Positions 21,226-56,020 of a stretch of DNA of 64,000 nt are shown here, one piece after another. The notes below the pieces were generated by a model. The model searched no databases and had not been told where the DNA came from. It saw only the letters and a list, made by a program, of their open reading frames with translations. Both the position numbers and the translations under genes were made by a program. Positions within the stretch are counted from its first letter, which is position 1, and every line of letters starts with the position of its first letter. Source of the DNA: an uncultured bacterium (GTDB lineage Bacteria > Patescibacteriota > Minisyncoccia > UBA6257 > 2-01-FULL-56-20); contig CAWHOC010000016.1 in assembly GCA_963830935.1 (NCBI GenBank), forward strand, positions 13,852 to 77,851. The letters run 5' to 3'.

Positions 21226-21312
21226 GGATTGAGCAAAAGGACTATCCTTTTTTAACGGAAATGCCACGTAGGAACGTGACCGTTAAAAAAGGATAGTCCT
21301 TTTGCTCAATCC
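21226..21312. repeat. perfect 33-bp inverted repeat with a 21-nt loop (large hairpin/palindrome)
   Basis: Left arm ggattgagcaaaaggactatccttttttaacgg is the exact reverse complement of the right arm ccgttaaaaaaggatagtccttttgctcaatcc. Confidence 0.8.
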
Positions 21313-36825: not shown

Positions 36826-36880
36826 CGCCTGTTCGCCTCCAGGCAGATGACCGTTCGGCGAAGGGGTATTTTTTGCACGC
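36826..36880. repeat. family A repeat copy 1 (core CGCCTCCAGGCAGATGACCGTTCGGCG) just after the DinB-like gene
   Basis: Core recurs at 51407-51433 and diverged at 48904-48920; the reverse complement sits at 49080-49105. Confidence 0.6.
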
Positions 36881-37802: not shown

Positions 37803-37911
37803 GGGCCGCTTGATGCCATTTCTCGGGTATGGCGTCGCGTTCTACTGAACGCGCGCTTCGGCTCTCGCCGCCTTCGCGGCTCCGAGACGCCCCTCGAAAC
37901 GGCATCTTCGC
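37803..37911. repeat. family B repeat copy 1 (core GGCTCTCGCCGCCTTCGCGGCTCCGAGAC) with imperfect ~24-bp terminal inverted repeats
   Basis: Core is identical to 55843-55871 and the reverse complement is related to 48855-48885. Flanks ggccgcttgatgccatttctcggg and cccctcgaaacggcatcttcgcggcc are inverted. Confidence 0.6.
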
Positions 37912-46552: not shown

Positions 46553-48890
46553 TTATTCTTGATGCACCCGCGCGCGGAATTCTTCCACTTTTTTTCGTAA
46601 CGCTATATTTTTTTTGAACTGCGGATCCGTAGTGACGGCTTTGATCGCCGCTTCGCGCGAATGTTTGACGAGCTCCGGATCTTTGAGCGCTTCCATCGCG
46701 ACGTCGGGGAGTCCGGTCTGCACGTTGCCGAAGAATTGGCCCGGGCCGCGCAACGCAAGATCATGTTCGGCGAGCTCGAAACCATTTTTTGCCTCGAGAA
46801 TCGCTTTGAGGCGCGCGTTCGCGATGGCCGCTTGGGAGTCGGCCATTAAAAAACAGTATGACTGATACTCGCCGCGCCCGACGCGGCCCCGGAACTGATA
46901 GAGTTGGGCGAGGCCGAACCGGTCGGCACCTTCGATCATCATGATGGACGCGTTCGGCACGTCCACGCCAACCTCCACCACCGACGTGGCGACGAGAATG
47001 TCGAACTCCTTATCCTTAAAGCGGCGCATCACATCTTCTTTTTCTTTCGGCTTCATCTGGCCGTGGAGCATCGCGATGCGCAGGTCGGGAAAGATCTTCG
47101 TGGTGAGCTTTTCATATTCCTCTTTGACGGATTTCAGTTCCAGTTTTTTGACGAACGCGGCTTTGCCGCCGGGCACTTTCGTCACTTCCTCTTCCTCCGG
47201 CGCTTCGATGCGCGGGCAGATCACGAACGCCTGGCGCCCCTCTTTTATTTGCTCGCGAATAAAGTTGTATGTGGCGGTGCGCTTGAGCGGCGCCACGATC
47301 TCGGTTTTGATCTCCTTGCGCCCAACGGGCAGCTCCGTAATGAGCGAAAGGTCAAGGTCGCCGAACACGGAGAGCATGAGCGTGCGCGGGATCGGCGTTG
47401 CGGACATGCTGAGGAAGTGGGGGATGGGCGCGCGCGCCGTGCCATTCTTTGCCGCCGCCGTTGCCGTTGGCTCCGCCGTGCGCACCGCTCTTCCGCGCGT
47501 TCAGCTCCGCGCGCTGGCGCACGCCGAACCGGTGCTGTTCATCTATTATTACGAGCCCGAGCGAAGCGAACTCCATCGCTTTTTGGATGAGTGCGTGCGT
47601 GCCGAAAATGATGGACACTTCGCCCGCGGCAACTTTCCTATAAAATTCGGGCTTGGATATTTTTGACTCCAATTCCTTGCCGTAAAAAATATGAGCACTG
47701 CTGCCGGTGATGAGTCCGACGGCGGGTTGCGGGGTGCCGGTGCCATCATCACCTAGTGCGAGCGTGGTGAATAGTTTTCTCATTGTCTCGAAATGCTGCC
47801 GCGCCAGAATTTCAGTCGGCGCCATAAACGCGGTCTGGAGCCCGTTCTCCGCGGCGATCACCGCCGCAACCGCCGCAACGACGGTTTTGCCCGAGCCGAC
47901 GTCGCCCTGCAGGAGTCGGTTCATCGGTCGCGCTTTCTCGATATCTTTGATGATCTCCCAGAGCGATTGCTTCTGCGAATGCGTGAGCTCGAAGGGAAGC
48001 TTGGCGAGCATCGATTTCACGCGCTCGATGTCCGCCTTGATGACGGGCGCGGATTCCTGCGCGAGCTTCATCTTCTGCTGCATGTTCAAAATTTGCAAAA
48101 GGAACAGTTCCTCGAACGAGAACCGCGCGCGCGCGGCGGTGGCGTCCTCGATGTGGCGCGGGAAGTGGATGGAGTGGATCGCTTCGTTTAATTCCGGAAA
48201 TTGGAACTCCACTAAAATTTCCGCAGGGATCCATTCTTTCATCACCGGATTTTTATGGAAGAGCGATTGCGTGACGAAGCGGATGCCGCGCGAGGTGAGT
48301 CCGCGGGTCTCGGGATACACCGGCACGAGCCGCGCGGTGTGGCTCATCTCCTGTCCGCCGCGGTCGCCCGCGCGCTCGCGCAGGTGGATCATCTCATAGA
48401 CGGGATTGTTCAAATAAATTTCGCCTTCCTCCGACACGGAAGCTTTTCCGGCGAGGTTCACCGTGCGGCCGGTCTTCAGAACGTTCGCCACGTACGGCTG
48501 GTTGAACCACACCGCGCGGATGGATCCCGATTCGTCCGCGATCGTCGCTTCCACGATGCTCATCGCGCGGCGCCAGCTGCGTTTGCTTTGGATCTCCTCC
48601 ACGACACCCGTGATGGTGGCTTGTTGTCCGGGCTCAAGCTCGGCGATGGGATACACTTTTGTGAAATCCTCGTAGCGGGTGGGAAAGTGCCAGAGAAGAT
48701 CGCGAACGGTCTTGATGCCCATCTTCTCGAGACGGCGCAAAGCGGGAACTCGTGCTCCCACAACCTCGAAGAGCGGTGTGTCGGGCGCTATCTGAAGCAT
48801 TGATTTGCGAATAGTATAGCATAACGGGCAGAAGAAGAACACACATGCCTTTGAAAGGTGTCTCGGAAGCGCGAAGGCGCTGAGAGCCAA
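46553..48890 (-). CDS. recG: ATP-dependent DNA helicase RecG; one frame break ~47445
   Basis: LLQGDVGSGKTVVA, IIDEQHRFGV, then MSATPIPRTL and helicase C-terminal motifs in the other frame. Confidence 0.8.
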
Positions 48891-48935
48891 GGCGCGCGGC
48901 CAGCAGGTGACCGTTCGGCGAGAAGGATATTCTTT
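48843..48935. repeat. composite repeat: family B copy 2 (inverted orientation) fused to a family A-like segment, directly 3' of tRNA-Lys
   Basis: cacatgcctttgaaaggtgtctcggaagcgcgaaggcgctgagagccaagg is the reverse-complement homolog of 55806-55890, followed by caggtgaccgttcggcgagaagg. Confidence 0.55.
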
Positions 48936-49060: not shown

Positions 49061-49123
49061 GGCAAAAGATATCCTCCTTGCCGAACGATCATCTGCCTGG
49101 AGGCGAGAGGGATATCTTTTGCC
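49061..49123. repeat. family A copy 3 (inverted orientation) flanked by 17-bp inverted repeats
   Basis: Arms ggcaaaagatatcctcc and gagggatatcttttgcc; core gccgaacgatcatctgcctggaggcg. Confidence 0.6.
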
Positions 49124-49129
49124 ATGAGC

Positions 49130-49657
49130 TTAGTACCACTCTTGATGTTTCAGCGCTGCCAACGCGATGATCGCCGCCGGGAGGTAATATTCCGTGCGGT
49201 CGATCGCGCCGTCGGTGAGGTGGCCGATCGCGCCGATGCCCTGCTTTGAATTCGTGCTGTTGAAAAACTTGTCGGCCGCGTGCCCGAGTTCCATGCCATC
49301 CTCAATATATTTTTTCAGTTGCTTGGGCAGATAAAATTGCGCGGTTGATGATTCCCCGATGAATCCACTCTGGTCGGTCACGAGGATCCATGCCCGTTCG
49401 AACATGCGATCGTTCTCGCGGCAGAGTCCGCCCTCCTGGCTTATATAAAAATCCGCATCGGGATGATGCTCCATGATATAGCGCAGGCGGTTCTCCGCGC
49501 CTCTCCGCGTTTCCTCTTCCATCGGTTGCTCCGCCACTCCCGACTTGGATTTTATTCCGACGAAGCGGAATTGTTCATCGGGAAAGATCGCGGCAAACGC
49601 CCGTTTGGCCACCTCGATCTTCACCGGATTTTCCGACGCGACGATGACGGATCTCAT
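49130..49657 (-). CDS. inosine/xanthosine triphosphatase (YjjX/DUF84 family)
   Basis: IVASENPVK...TRRGAENR...ISQEGG pattern. Confidence 0.55.
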   Translation of the reverse strand: MRSVIVASENPVKIEVAKRAFAAIFPDEQFRFVGIKSKSGVAEQPMEEETRRGAENRLRYIMEHHPDADFYISQEGGLCRENDRMFERAWILVTDQSGFIGESSTAQFYLPKQLKKYIEDGMELGHAADKFFNSTNSKQGIGAIGHLTDGAIDRTEYYLPAAIIALAALKHQEWY

Positions 49658-49838
49658 CCGCTCATTATATCATCTAAAAAAATAAATAAATAAAATAATC
49701 TCTCCCGCCAGGAGTTTCACGTCGCTCGCCGTTGCGGCTCCCTCCTTGAGAACCCACGGTTCTCAAGGCTCTCCTCCACGGAAGGGGCAGCCTGCCCCTT
49801 CCGACCCATCCCCCCGTTCAACTTCTGCCGGAGAATAG

Positions 49839-49939
49839 GTAGAAAAATAAAGGAGAGGTATTGAGCGAGTGGACGTGCCCCACGGGACTTCCTTCGGTCG
49901 CTTACGTCGGAGCGAAATACCTCTCCTTTGTTTTTCTAC
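49839..49939. repeat. structured repeat, family C copy 2: same ~53-nt core as 18582-18634, closed by a different 24-bp helix, abutting the tRNA-Arg 3' end
   Basis: Arms gtagaaaaataaaggagaggtatt and aatacctctcctttgtttttctac; core GAGCGAGTGGACGTGCCCCACGGGACTTCCTTCGGTCGCTTACGTCGGAGCGA. Confidence 0.6.
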
Positions 49940-49942
49940 TTG

Positions 49943-50014
49943 TGCCCCCGCCAGGAGTTGAACCCAGACTTCATGGTTCGAAGCCATGCGTGATATCCGT
50001 TTCACTACGAGGGC
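49943..50014 (-). tRNA. tRNA-Arg (UCG)
   Basis: Hand-folded: acceptor gccctcg/cgggggc, anticodon stem catgg/ccatg with loop cTTCGaa, T-loop ttcaact. Confidence 0.65.
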
Positions 50015-50088
50015 GTTGCGCCGATTGCGCCACGAATGCGGCAATCGCGCGTATATATAGTGTACGCTCTAATGCTACAATTACTCCT

Positions 50089-50772
50089 ATGACAATTGCA
50101 ATCATCGTGTTCGAATTTGTCGTCCTGCTCTTTTCCGCGGTACTGCACGAGGTGGCACACGGGTATGAGGCGGAGCGGTTGGGGGATGACACCGCGCGGC
50201 GCGCGGGACGGTTGACGCTGAACCCGCTCGCGCATCTGGACCCGTTCCTTTCATTCCTCATGCCTGCAGTGCTTTTCCTCACCACCGGATTTTTCTTCGC
50301 GGGCGCGAAGCCGGTGCCATACAATCCGAACAACCTCAAGAACCCGCGCACGGGCGCGGTGAAGGTCGCGCTCGCCGGTCCCGCCACGAATCTTTTGATC
50401 GCGCTCGTGTTCGGCGTGATCTCCGTGCTCCTGCCGGTGGCGGGCGCCACGAAGGACGCGCTCTTTAACGCCATCGCGGGCGGTGCCACGCCCGTCTTCG
50501 CGGGCTCGCTCGACGGCGCGTATTTTTTCTTTTTGATCATTGTCTATATCAATGTCCTGCTCGGCATCTTTAATCTTGTGCCGATCCCGCCACTCGACGG
50601 ATCAAAATTGCTCTTTCTCATCCTGCCTCCCACGCCCGCCACGTATAAGTTTATGTATTTTATGGAGCGATGGGGACTGATCCTGGTCCTTATTTTTGTG
50701 TTTTTTGGGTTTCAGTTCATTTTCCCAGTTATCAACTTTTTCTTCGCGCTGTTTACGGGGAGAGTGATATAA
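50089..50772 (+). CDS. site-2 protease-family (peptidase M50) membrane metalloprotease
   Basis: HEVAHG (HExxH) and NLVPIPPLDGS. The longer ORF starting at 49861 is rejected because it runs over tRNA-Arg. Confidence 0.65.
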   Translation: MTIAIIVFEFVVLLFSAVLHEVAHGYEAERLGDDTARRAGRLTLNPLAHLDPFLSFLMPAVLFLTTGFFFAGAKPVPYNPNNLKNPRTGAVKVALAGPATNLLIALVFGVISVLLPVAGATKDALFNAIAGGATPVFAGSLDGAYFFFLIIVYINVLLGIFNLVPIPPLDGSKLLFLILPPTPATYKFMYFMERWGLILVLIFVFFGFQFIFPVINFFFALFTGRVI

Positions 50773-51394: not shown

Positions 51395-51406
51395 AAACAG
51401 GCACGC

Positions 51407-51433
51407 TCGCCTCCAGGCAGATGACCGTTCGGC
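51407..51433. repeat. family A copy 4, inside a terminator-like hairpin immediately 3' of tRNA-Ala
   Basis: cgcctccaggcagatgaccgttcggcg flanked by caggcacgc ... gcgtgcgtttttgttt. Confidence 0.6.
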
Positions 51434-55777: not shown

Positions 55778-55901
55778 GAAGCGCTAAAACAGCACAGGGC
55801 ACATGCTTTTGAAAGGACGGCGTTCCGGTCTGCTGACCGGCCGCCTTGGCTCTCGCCGCCTTCGCGGCTCCGAGACACCTTTCAAAAGCATGTGCCTTGT
55901 G
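55773..55901. repeat. family B copy 3: 34-bp near-perfect terminal inverted repeats (one G-U position) enclosing a 61-nt core; overlaps the fusA stop codon
   Basis: gctaaaacagcacagggcacatgcttttgaaagg ... cctttcaaaagcatgtgccttgtgctgttttagc; the loop contains ggctctcgccgccttcgcggctccgagac. Confidence 0.7.
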
Positions 55902-56020
55902 CTGTTTTAGCGACCCGTTCCAGAATTATCTAGGCAACATTGTCCTTATCCCGGAATGATTAAGAAAAGATTAAAAGAGACTTGGAGTATGGGTAAATTA
56001 GATATATGATTTAGTGACAA

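What the first reader, a model, noticed from the sequence alone, without database searches (positions are those of the whole stretch)
49839..49939. Second copy of the family-C structured element, directly adjacent to tRNA-Arg
Same core as 18582-18634 but closed by gtagaaaaataaaggagaggtatt / aatacctctcctttgtttttctac. It ends 3 nt from the tRNA-Arg(UCG) 3' end, consistent with a tRNA-targeting insertion or a 3' processing/termination element.
Basis: seen in the sequence. Interest (0 to 1): 0.55.

Follow-up and report, generated by a model that had tools for sequence, protein, structure and literature searches.

The report
Conserved module capping a terminator hairpin
The feature is real: a 24-bp terminator-like hairpin just past the tRNA-Arg gene carries, in place of a loop, one copy of a rare 53-nt conserved sequence module that in related candidate-phyla bacteria sits at the tip of hairpins after ordinary genes, so it does not target tRNAs, and what the module itself does is unknown.

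Summary
Observation confirmed. Positions 49839-49939 form a 24-bp stem, perfect apart from one G-U pair, around a 53-nt core that is about 91% identical to 18584-18636.

The tRNA-Arg(TCG) gene is on the minus strand. Its 3' end lies 2 nt from the hairpin.

The stem is an A-run/GC/T-run palindrome with the shape of a bidirectional intrinsic terminator. A relative (L039) has a homologous outer stem at the same tRNA-Arg but no core. Other relatives have unrelated long hairpins there, or none.

The core ("family C") is a low-copy dispersed module of Paceibacteria. I found 8 distinct copies, always at a hairpin tip after a gene or between convergent genes: eno/DoxX, rplK/cmk, rpmE/response regulator, sodA/fmt. 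Only this copy is next to a tRNA.

At the orthologous eno site the module is full-length, reduced to a 30-nt basal version, flipped, or absent. Even so, the basal 30 nt is 93-97% conserved against about 79% for the flanking DNA.

The outer arms are inverted copies of the ends of neighbouring genes.

There is no match in Rfam, phages, plasmids or viral contigs. The core alone folds no better than shuffled sequence.

Verdict: the termination reading is supported and the tRNA-targeting reading is not. The module is a new variant of the terminator-associated palindromic repeats, with unknown function. Interest is moderate.

The parts
49839..49862 (+). 5' arm of the 24-bp stem. It contains the A-run 49843-51, which reads as the U-run for minus-strand transcripts.
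   Evidence: The outer part (tagaaaaa.aaagg.ga) is homologous to the L039 hairpin.
49863..49915 (+). Family-C core, 53 nt. Segments: GAGCGA (63-68), GUG (69-71), GACGU (72-76), variable GC (77-78), apical CCCACGG-GACUU-CCUUCGG (79-97), UCGCUU (98-103), ACGUC (104-108), G (109), GAGCGA (110-115).
   Evidence: Model R1 scores 96.2 bits on the + strand and 15.7 bits on the - strand.
49916..49939 (+). 3' arm of the stem, with the T-run tttgttttt at 49927-35.
49942..50014 (-). tRNA-Arg(TCG) gene with no encoded CCA. Its 3' end faces the hairpin.
49816..49838 (+). Degenerate inverted copy of the tRNA-Arg 3' end. It is the imperfect outward extension of the palindrome and pairs with 49940-49963.
   Evidence: I3: 36-nt arms, 83%; I21: 16 nt, 88%. 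The same decayed copy is present in L039.
18562..18658 (+). Copy 1 of family C. 5' arm 18562-83, core 18584-18636, 3' arm 18637-58. It lies between the eno stop (18544) and the convergent DoxX-like gene, whose stop codon and last codons lie inside the 3' arm.
   Evidence: (I10). A 96%-identical relative (L056) lacks these 99 nt.

Best explanation
The 101-nt feature is the hairpin of a bidirectional Rho-independent terminator that closes the minus-strand tRNA-Arg transcription unit. Its tip is occupied by one copy of a dispersed, sequence-conserved module (family C) that belongs to Paceibacteria terminator palindromes in general, not to tRNAs.

How it works:
1. The GC-rich inner stem (GGAGAGGUAUU/AAUACCUCUCC) is followed by UUUAUUUUU on the minus strand and UUUGUUUUU on the plus strand. 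This would stop RNA polymerase coming from either side. The sequence anatomy and the position are shown. Termination itself is inferred.
2. The stem is local, fast-evolving palindromic DNA. Its arms are built and kept complementary by DNA-level inverted copying of whatever flanks the hairpin, such as the tRNA 3' end or the last codons of neighbouring genes. That the arms are inverted copies of gene ends is shown. Template switching as the process is inferred.
3. The core is a modular cassette. It has a 30-nt basal unit, GAGCGAGUGGACGU-loop-ACGUCGGAGCGA. On the forward strand this prolongs the stem through GA/AG-GC/CG-GA/AG and a 5-bp GACGU/ACGUC helix. A 23-nt apical unit (CCCACGGGACUUCCGUUGGUCGC) is nested in its loop. 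That the 30-nt version equals the full version minus 23 nt is shown. The base-pairing scheme inside the core is inferred and only weakly supported.
4. The cassette is gained, lost, truncated and flipped at hairpin tips on the time scale of species divergence. The basal sequence nevertheless stays more conserved than neighbouring coding DNA. I therefore take it to be a sequence-specific recognition site read on the forward strand in single-stranded form, by a protein or a complementary nucleic acid, rather than a passive loop. The conservation and the strand bias are shown. The ligand and the benefit are unknown.
For: Anatomy and context
- A-run, stem and T-run are present in all 7 copies with a complete or near-complete stem.
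- All copies follow a gene or lie between convergent genes: eno/DoxX, rplK/cmk, rpmE/response regulator, sodA/fmt, tRNA-Arg.
- Other tRNAs in the window are followed within a few nt by simpler hairpins of the same A-run/T-run type.

The stem is older than the core at this site
- L039 has a homologous outer stem and flanks, with two fully compensatory differences, but a plain 35-bp hairpin with no core.
- The tRNA-Arg 3' flank is hypervariable among relatives. This holds even between contigs that encode the identical M50 protein, L062 versus L068.

The module is dispersed and not tRNA-linked
- 8 distinct copies (6 full, 2 mini) were found in about 700 kb of Paceibacteria DNA plus the two collection scans.

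Turnover at the orthologous eno-DoxX site
- Window: full module, forward orientation.
- L061: mini module, forward, with a homologous 3' arm.
- L058: mini module, reversed, sharing the inner stem GCTGTC/GACAGC.
- L057: a different hairpin.
- L056, 96% nt identical: a clean absence of 99 nt.
- L059 and L060: the genes abut.

Constraint on the core
- The basal 30 nt are 29/30 and 28/30 identical between the window and L061/L058, where the flanking DNA is 79-80% identical.

Arms copied from neighbours
- The arms include inverted copies of the DoxX end (KKT*), the fmt end (KKI*), the eno end (GK*) and the tRNA-Arg 3' end.

Forward-strand bias
- Mismatches in the outer stems are G-U rather than A-C on the core's forward strand, 10 to 1, one-sided p = 0.006.
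- The forward strand scores 96 bits with model R1 and the reverse strand 16 bits.

The same architecture in other families
- The same architecture occurs in at least two other core families in the window.
- One of them, behind fusA, has a core 97% identical to that of a relative while its stems are about 69% identical and still paired.
Against: - No transcript data exist, so termination is inferred from sequence only. A 53-nt 'loop' is far larger than in canonical intrinsic terminators.
- The core alone is no more stable than shuffled sequence, and its predicted fold differs between copies.
- Inside the core there is only one compensatory pair and two mismatches. The rod-like pairing of the core is therefore weakly supported.
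- At this particular copy the favoured forward strand is antisense to the tRNA transcript, and no plus-strand gene or convincing promoter lies upstream. An RNA-level role here would need an unannotated transcript, or the single strand that matters is DNA.
- High core identity could also come from gene conversion between copies or from horizontal spread rather than from host-level function.
- In L061 the core persists although the long 5' arm is gone.
Confidence: 0.55

Rival explanations
1. Family C is a purely selfish non-autonomous mobile element of MITE type. It is moved by an unseen transposase or recombinase that inserts into the loops of terminator palindromes. The conserved core is what the enzyme recognises, and the variable stems are simply the targets.
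For: - Presence/absence between 96%-identical relatives.
- Lineage-specific presence at tRNA-Arg inside an older palindrome.
- Unrelated stems around near-identical cores: the window copy 1 core is identical (53/53) to the L034 core at a different locus.
- Three copies (window copy 2, L004 and, partly, L036) share the extra 6-bp inverted ends GGTATT/AATACC.
- The nested 23-nt unit suggests repeated loop insertion.
- From established knowledge: IS1397 and ISKpn1 insert into loops of REP palindromes.
Against: - There are no terminal inverted repeats common to the family and no variable target-site duplication. GAGCGA at both ends is constant.
- Copy number is low, and the two copies within one genome differ more (about 9%) than copies across genomes do.
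- The eno-site copy is old. Its 3' arm is homologous between the window and L061 at about 80% flank identity. Its core has not decayed, which is unexpected for a dead insertion.
- No transposase was seen next to any copy.
- There were no hits in viral, phage or plasmid collections.
Confidence: 0.2
2. Family C is an independent functional RNA, either a small RNA or a cis-acting 3'-UTR element, possibly protein-binding or catalytic. It is transcribed from the forward strand. The long stem is its closing helix and terminator.
For: - The forward-strand G-U bias is 10:1.
- Tandem G.A motifs make sense only on the forward strand. In L003 the outer G.A/A.G is replaced by U-A/C-G.
- There is one compensatory A-U to C-G change in the apical hairpin of L036.
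- The basal core is more conserved than the flanking coding DNA.
- In 4 of 6 informative cases the forward orientation follows a highly expressed gene: eno, rplK, rpmE, sodA.
Against: - There is no Rfam match even at E <= 10.
- The core has no thermodynamic signal, and its helices are almost invariant, so covariation cannot support them.
- Orientation relative to the neighbours flips at the same site, L058 versus the window.
- At the copy under review the forward strand has no evident promoter and is antisense to the tRNA.
- Close relatives do without it.
Confidence: 0.2
3. It is the remnant of an element that integrates into tRNA genes, or a dedicated tRNA 3'-processing signal.
For: - It is adjacent to the tRNA-Arg 3' end.
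- A 13-nt direct copy of the tRNA 3' end (CCCGCCAGGAGTT) lies at 49706-49718, 224 nt away, as at integration sites.
Against: - 7 of the 8 distinct copies are not at tRNAs.
- There is no integrase.
- The second tRNA-like piece is one arm of another inverted repeat (49706-22 with 49816-31), not an att site.
- The hairpin with its decayed inverted tRNA copy predates the core, as seen in L039.
- Orthologous tRNA-Arg genes work with other flanks or with none.
Confidence: 0.03

Closest known systems
Bidirectional intrinsic (Rho-independent) terminators
   Same: - A GC-rich stem flanked by an A-run and a T-run.
- Placed directly after a tRNA or a stop codon, often between convergent genes.
- Very stable hairpin.
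   Different: - A 53-nt conserved insert takes the place of a 3-10-nt loop.
- The stems are 21-35 bp, far longer than usual.
- The arms run into coding or tRNA sequence.
- Activity has not been tested.
REP/BIME and REPIN elements of proteobacteria
   Same: - Extragenic palindromic repeats at gene 3' ends and between convergent genes.
- Mosaic or nested composition.
- Proposed roles in termination and mRNA 3'-end stability.
   Different: - In REPs the stem sequence is the conserved part and the loop varies. Here it is the reverse.
- REPs occur in hundreds of copies and go with RAYT transposases. Here the copy number is low and no such gene was seen.
MITE-like palindromic repeats with terminator activity (Neisseria Correia elements, Rickettsia palindromic elements, IS1397-type insertion into palindrome loops)
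   Same: - Small, non-coding and hairpin-forming.
- Present or absent between close relatives.
- Can supply or sit in terminators.
- IS1397 and ISKpn1 show that palindrome loops can be insertion targets.
   Different: - No family-wide terminal inverted repeats, no target duplication and no cognate transposase.
- The conserved unit is only 30-53 nt.
- Orthologous copies stay conserved over about 20% flank divergence.

Membership tests
Intrinsic bidirectional terminator | GC-rich stem immediately followed by a U-tract, on both strands | tested here: met
   GGAGAGGTATT/AATACCTCTCC is followed by TTTGTTTTT on the + strand and TTTATTTTT on the - strand. The same layout is seen in L003, L004, L034 and L058.
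Intrinsic bidirectional terminator | Short loop (about 3-10 nt) | tested here: not met
   The arms are 53 nt apart. The tool's terminator scan, which allows loops of 3-8 nt, does not call it.
Intrinsic bidirectional terminator | Position at the end of a transcription unit | tested here: met
   It lies 2 nt past the tRNA-Arg 3' end. Other copies lie after eno, rplK, rpmE and sodA, each facing a convergent gene.
Intrinsic bidirectional terminator | RNA 3' ends map to the U-tract | not testable with these tools
   No transcript data are available.
MITE / IS-derived element | Terminal inverted repeats conserved among copies | tested here: not met
   The outer stems are unrelated between paralogous copies. 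Only 3 copies share a 6-bp GGTATT/AATACC.
MITE / IS-derived element | Target-site duplication (direct repeat that differs between copies) | tested here: not met
   The flanks are inverted, not direct. The GAGCGA direct repeat is constant and internal.
MITE / IS-derived element | Insertion polymorphism between close relatives | tested here: met
   The window and L056 are 96% identical in the flanks, with 99 nt present in one and absent in the other. At tRNA-Arg, compare the window with L039.
MITE / IS-derived element | Cognate transposase with matching ends | not tested
   None was seen in the loci held. Collection scans for split ends were no longer available.
REP/BIME (REPIN) | Conserved palindromic stem sequence, high copy number, RAYT gene | tested here: not met
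   The conserved part is the loop. There are 2 copies in 64 kb and 8 distinct copies in about 700 kb.
Any described RNA family (Rfam 15) | Covariance-model match at or near the gathering score | tested here: not met
   Only tRNAs pass in the window. In 49700-50100 at E <= 10 there are only chance hairpin hits, for example MIR2871 at 24.5 bits against a gathering score of 99.
Kink-turn RNA motif | A 3-nt bulge 5' of tandem G.A/A.G on the strand that enters from the canonical helix | tested here: not met
   By inspection of alignment A3, tandem G.A is present, but the 3-nt bulge (GUG) is on the opposite strand. The strand expected to carry the bulge has 1 nt.
tRNA-gene-targeting integrative element | Copies located at tRNA 3' ends, integrase gene, direct att repeats | tested here: not met
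   Only 1 of 8 copies is at a tRNA. There is no integrase. The tRNA-like repeats form inverted pairs.

The most novel reading that the evidence does not exclude
Family C, together with its sister families in this genome, is a new kind of genetic element: short sequence-conserved cassettes with no terminal repeats and no target duplication. They colonise, flip within and are excised from the tips of bidirectional terminator palindromes by a hairpin-directed DNA mechanism, either template switching or an unknown recombinase acting on single strands. Cassettes can nest inside one another, and the palindrome arms grow by inverted copying of neighbouring gene ends. In effect these would be mobile terminator caps in the streamlined genomes of candidate-phyla-radiation bacteria.
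Probability: 0.2. Interest if true: 0.7.

Novelty: new variant of a known kind. Interest (0 to 1): 0.4.

Why it matters
Candidate-phyla-radiation genomes are about 1 Mb and almost free of repeats. A set of conserved cassettes reserved for terminator tips is therefore unexpected baggage.

If the cassettes are functional, they mark an unknown layer of RNA 3'-end biology, such as a factor-binding site, in organisms that cannot yet be grown.

If they are selfish, they show a way of spreading that needs neither inverted ends nor target duplications.

In either case the data show that terminator palindromes in these bacteria turn over very quickly. They differ even between contigs that encode the identical M50 neighbour protein, and they borrow the last codons of adjacent genes. 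Both points matter for annotating gene ends and for understanding genome stability in these lineages.

Tried and rejected
- **Rfam.** The gathering scan of the whole window found only tRNAs. The permissive scan of 49700-50100 found only chance hits.
- **Viral contigs.** Three pattern scans gave no hit. A fourth attempt was a syntax error.
- **Phage and plasmid BLAST** with the core gave no match.
- **Genome-collection scan.** 4 hits, of which 2 are chance matches inside genes (L001, L002).
- **Metagenome scan.** 32 loci, of which only 4 are real (L017 = L003, L025 = L004, L034, L036). The rest are GC-rich coding matches.
- **L015** looked like a distant relative because of a following T-run, but it folds differently and was rejected.
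- **Small ORF.** The core was considered as a small ORF starting at TTG 49861. This was rejected because the two window copies differ by frame-shifting indels.
- **Known RNA motifs.** Kink-turn and sarcin-ricin readings of the GA/GUG loop were rejected on strand and sequence grounds (inspection of alignment A3).
- **Stable cap.** The idea that the core is a thermodynamically stable cap was rejected.
- **Filters-off model search of the window** found only generic hairpins besides the two copies.
- **Literature.** Three full-text searches found no description of such elements in Patescibacteria.
- **Host divergence.** It could not be calibrated for L003, L004, L034 or L036, because their loci share no genes with the window.

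Full report
**1. What is in the sequence**

Positions 49839-49862 and 49916-49939 are exact inverse complements apart from one T-G pair. The 101 nt fold at -52.4 kcal/mol on the + strand, z = -8.2, and at -42.8 kcal/mol on the - strand.

The 53 nt between the arms are GAGCGAGTGGACGTGCCCCACGGGACTTCCTTCGGTCGCTTACGTCGGAGCGA. They recur at 18584-18636 with 90.7% identity and two 1-nt indels. There they lie inside a completely different 21-22-bp stem, gaaaacctaggccatcgctgtc / ggcagtgatggcctaggttttc. Chance expectation for the shared blocks is zero.

ARAGORN and Rfam place tRNA-Arg(TCG) at 49942-50014 on the minus strand. The hairpin begins 2 nt after the discriminator base of a tRNA gene that encodes no CCA.

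**2. The stem looks like a terminator and is older than the core**

Both arms carry an A-run and a T-run outside a GC-rich segment. Each strand therefore reads as stem followed by a U-tract.

In the same window, tRNA-Pro, tRNA-Glu and tRNA-Ala are followed within a few nt by simpler hairpins of the same design.

I recovered syntenic loci (recG - tRNA-Lys - tRNA-Arg - M50 protease - S12 - S7 - EF-G) through S12 and M50 homologues.

In L039 (S12 93%, M50 89% identical) the tRNA-Arg is followed by a 35-bp hairpin.
- Its outer stem and flanks align with the window: tagaaaaaGaaaggGgaTg versus tagaaaaaTaaaggAgaGg.
- The alignment includes two fully compensatory pair changes.
- Its interior is a plain extended stem with a 10-nt loop and no family-C core.

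Other relatives differ again.
- L044 has an unrelated 27-bp hairpin.
- L062-L071 have an unrelated hairpin of about 34 bp.
- L068, which encodes the identical M50 protein, has a different short hairpin.
- L050-L052 and L072-L081 have none.

The site is thus a hot spot of palindrome turnover, and the core is a lineage-specific occupant of an older palindrome.

On both sides the palindrome continues imperfectly into the tRNA. 49816-49838 is a decayed inverted copy of the tRNA 3' end (I3 and I21). The same decayed copy is present in L039.

**3. The core is a dispersed module and is not tRNA-linked**

One scan each of the genome and metagenome collections, plus a covariance model (R1) run over about 700 kb of related DNA, gave 8 distinct copies.

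| Copy | Location |
|---|---|
| Window copy 1 | after eno, facing a DoxX-like gene |
| Window copy 2 | after tRNA-Arg |
| L003 = L017 | between rplK and cmk |
| L004 = L025 | between rpmE and a response regulator |
| L034 | between sodA and fmt |
| L036 | cut by the contig end |
| L058 | shortened copy at the eno site |
| L061 | shortened copy at the eno site |

All are from Paceibacteria/Minisyncoccia-type contigs. The nearest named S12 relatives are Candidatus Liptonbacteria.

None was found in viral, phage or plasmid collections. There is no Rfam match.

**4. The orthologous eno-DoxX site shows the dynamics**

Identity to the window in flanking DNA and the state of the site:

| Locus | Flank identity | State of the site |
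|---|---|---|
| L056 | 96% | The 99 nt at 18549-18647 are cleanly absent, with 6 nt of filler. Only the distal 3' arm remains, which is the DoxX coding end. |
| L059 | 87% | The two genes nearly abut. |
| L060 | 81% | The two genes nearly abut. |
| L061 | 80% | A 30-nt version, GAGCGGGTGGACGT-TCT-TACGTCGGAGCGA, in the same orientation. Its 3' arm is homologous to the window's (gacagcggtgg against ggcagtgatgg), but its long 5' arm is lost. |
| L058 | 79% | The same 30-nt version in the opposite orientation. It lies inside other arms that still share the inner GCTGTC/GACAGC. |
| L057 | 79% | A different hairpin. |

The short version equals the full version minus exactly CCCACGGGACTTCCGTTGGTCGC. 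The module is therefore two nested units.

Because the window and L061 share arm homology, the element predates about 20% flank divergence. Even so, the basal 30 nt are 29/30 and 28/30 identical. At 79% per-site identity this is improbable (about 0.8% and 3%, my calculation).

The core is therefore either constrained or homogenised. It has also been lost, flipped and resized.

**5. The arms are DNA-level constructs**

- In copy 1 the 3' arm contains the last codons and the stop of the DoxX-like gene (…KKT*). The 5' arm is their inverted copy.
- In L034 the same holds for fmt (…KKI*).
- In L058 it holds for the eno end.
- In copy 2 it holds for the tRNA 3' end.

Coding ends cannot drift to match a partner, so the opposite arm must have been copied from them.

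Perfect complementarity also persists through rapid sequence change. In a sister family behind fusA the arms are about 69% identical between the window and L037, while the core is 97% identical.

This points to template switching or intra-palindrome conversion rather than stepwise compensatory RNA evolution. That step is inference.

**6. Which strand matters**

Model R1 scores 96 bits and 93 bits on the forward strand of the two window copies, against 16-17 bits on the reverse strand.

On the forward strand the ends of the core can continue the stem as G.A/A.G - G-C/C-G - G.A/A.G. In L003 the outer pair of mismatches is replaced by U-A/C-G.

Non-Watson-Crick positions in the outer stems are G-U rather than A-C on the forward strand, 10 to 1, p = 0.006.

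Against a defined RNA fold:
- The core helices are almost invariant. There is one compensatory change, one wobble and two mismatches.
- The core alone is no more stable than shuffles.
- At copy 2 the forward strand is antisense to the tRNA and has no convincing promoter.

The single strand that is read may therefore be RNA or DNA.

**7. Context in the genome**

At least two other core families have the same architecture.
- GCCGAACGRTCATCTGCCTGGAGGCGA is at 49061-49123, at 51406-33 behind tRNA-Ala, and at 36833-59.
- GGCTCTCGCCGCCTTCGCGGCTCCGAGAC is at 55782-55912 behind fusA, at 37860-88, and at 48842-94 behind tRNA-Lys. It is also present in L039 and L044.

Family C is therefore one member of a general system of hairpin-tip cassettes.

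**8. Verdict**

The tRNA-targeting reading is rejected.

The best description is a bidirectional terminator palindrome whose tip carries a conserved, nested, mobile-or-exchangeable cassette of unknown ligand.

It resembles REP/BIME and MITE-type terminator repeats in place and behaviour. It fails their defining tests: the conserved part is the loop and not the stem, there are no terminal repeats, no target duplication and no transposase.

I rate it a new variant of a known kind, of moderate interest. There is a 20% chance that it represents a truly new hairpin-directed mobile cassette.

Noticed in passing
window 49706-49831: There is a second inverted-repeat-closed element directly beside the finding. 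Its closing arms (cccgccaggagtttcac / gttcaacttctgccgg) are a direct and an inverted partial copy of the tRNA-Arg 3' end. Inside are two perfect 11-bp hairpins (ccttgagaacc..ggttctcaagg and cggaaggggcag..ctgccccttccg). The + strand fold has z = -6.1. No copy was found elsewhere apart from the identical strains.
   Followed up: partly
window 49061-49123, 51406-51433 (-), 36833-36859 (-): There is another hairpin-tip family with the core GCCGAACGRTCATCTGCCTGGAGGCGA inside unrelated A-run/T-run stems. One copy abuts the tRNA-Ala 3' end and one follows the NTPase gene.
   Followed up: partly
window 55782-55912, 37860-37888, 48842-48894 (-); L044 13721-13752; L039 9935-9955: There is a third family with the core ..GGCTCTCGCCGCCTTCGCGGCTCCGAGAC... 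Behind fusA it has a 35-bp stem. Compared with L037, the core is 97% identical, with one compensatory pair, while the arms are about 69% identical yet still paired. The copy behind tRNA-Lys is a hybrid with the previous family's core.
   Followed up: partly
L062 vs L068 (tRNA-Arg 3' flank); also L039, L044: Contigs that encode the identical M50 protease carry completely different long hairpins behind tRNA-Arg. Terminator palindromes turn over faster than neighbouring proteins change.
   Followed up: partly
window 49130-49657 (-): The NTPase_I-T (inosine/xanthosine triphosphatase-like) gene between tRNA-Arg and tRNA-Lys is present only in the window's lineage. L039, L051 and others have the two tRNAs 80-160 nt apart or have other small ORFs there.
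   Followed up: partly
window 17404-18544; 47352-48890; L037 8593-9278: Several conserved genes are split by frameshifts: enolase in two overlapping ORFs, the recG C-terminus out of frame, and M50 in L037. This is either indel error in a long-read assembly or pseudogenes. Many enolase homologues in the database are likewise fragments.
   Followed up: no
window 55913 onward vs L037 1-4190: The window and L037 are identical around tRNA-Arg. They diverge from the fusA 3' end onward and are unrelated beyond the hairpin. L037 continues into a type I restriction-modification gene (HsdM). The recombination or island boundary therefore lies at a terminator palindrome.
   Followed up: no
window 15626-15699 (+): ARAGORN calls a tRNA of undetermined identity with an abnormal anticodon loop (tRNA-???, 'gc'). 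Rfam's tRNA model gives only 37 bits.
   Followed up: no
window 21226-21312: There is a perfect 33-bp palindrome with a 21-nt loop that contains a small CACGT/ACGTG hairpin. It is not a family-C member, although model R1 scores it 26 bits as a generic hairpin.
   Followed up: no
L057 10336-10355; L044 8490-8505: Two unrelated terminator hairpins share the apical motif GACGAGTCC. One is behind eno in L057 and the other behind tRNA-Arg in L044. This may be a further tip family.
   Followed up: no
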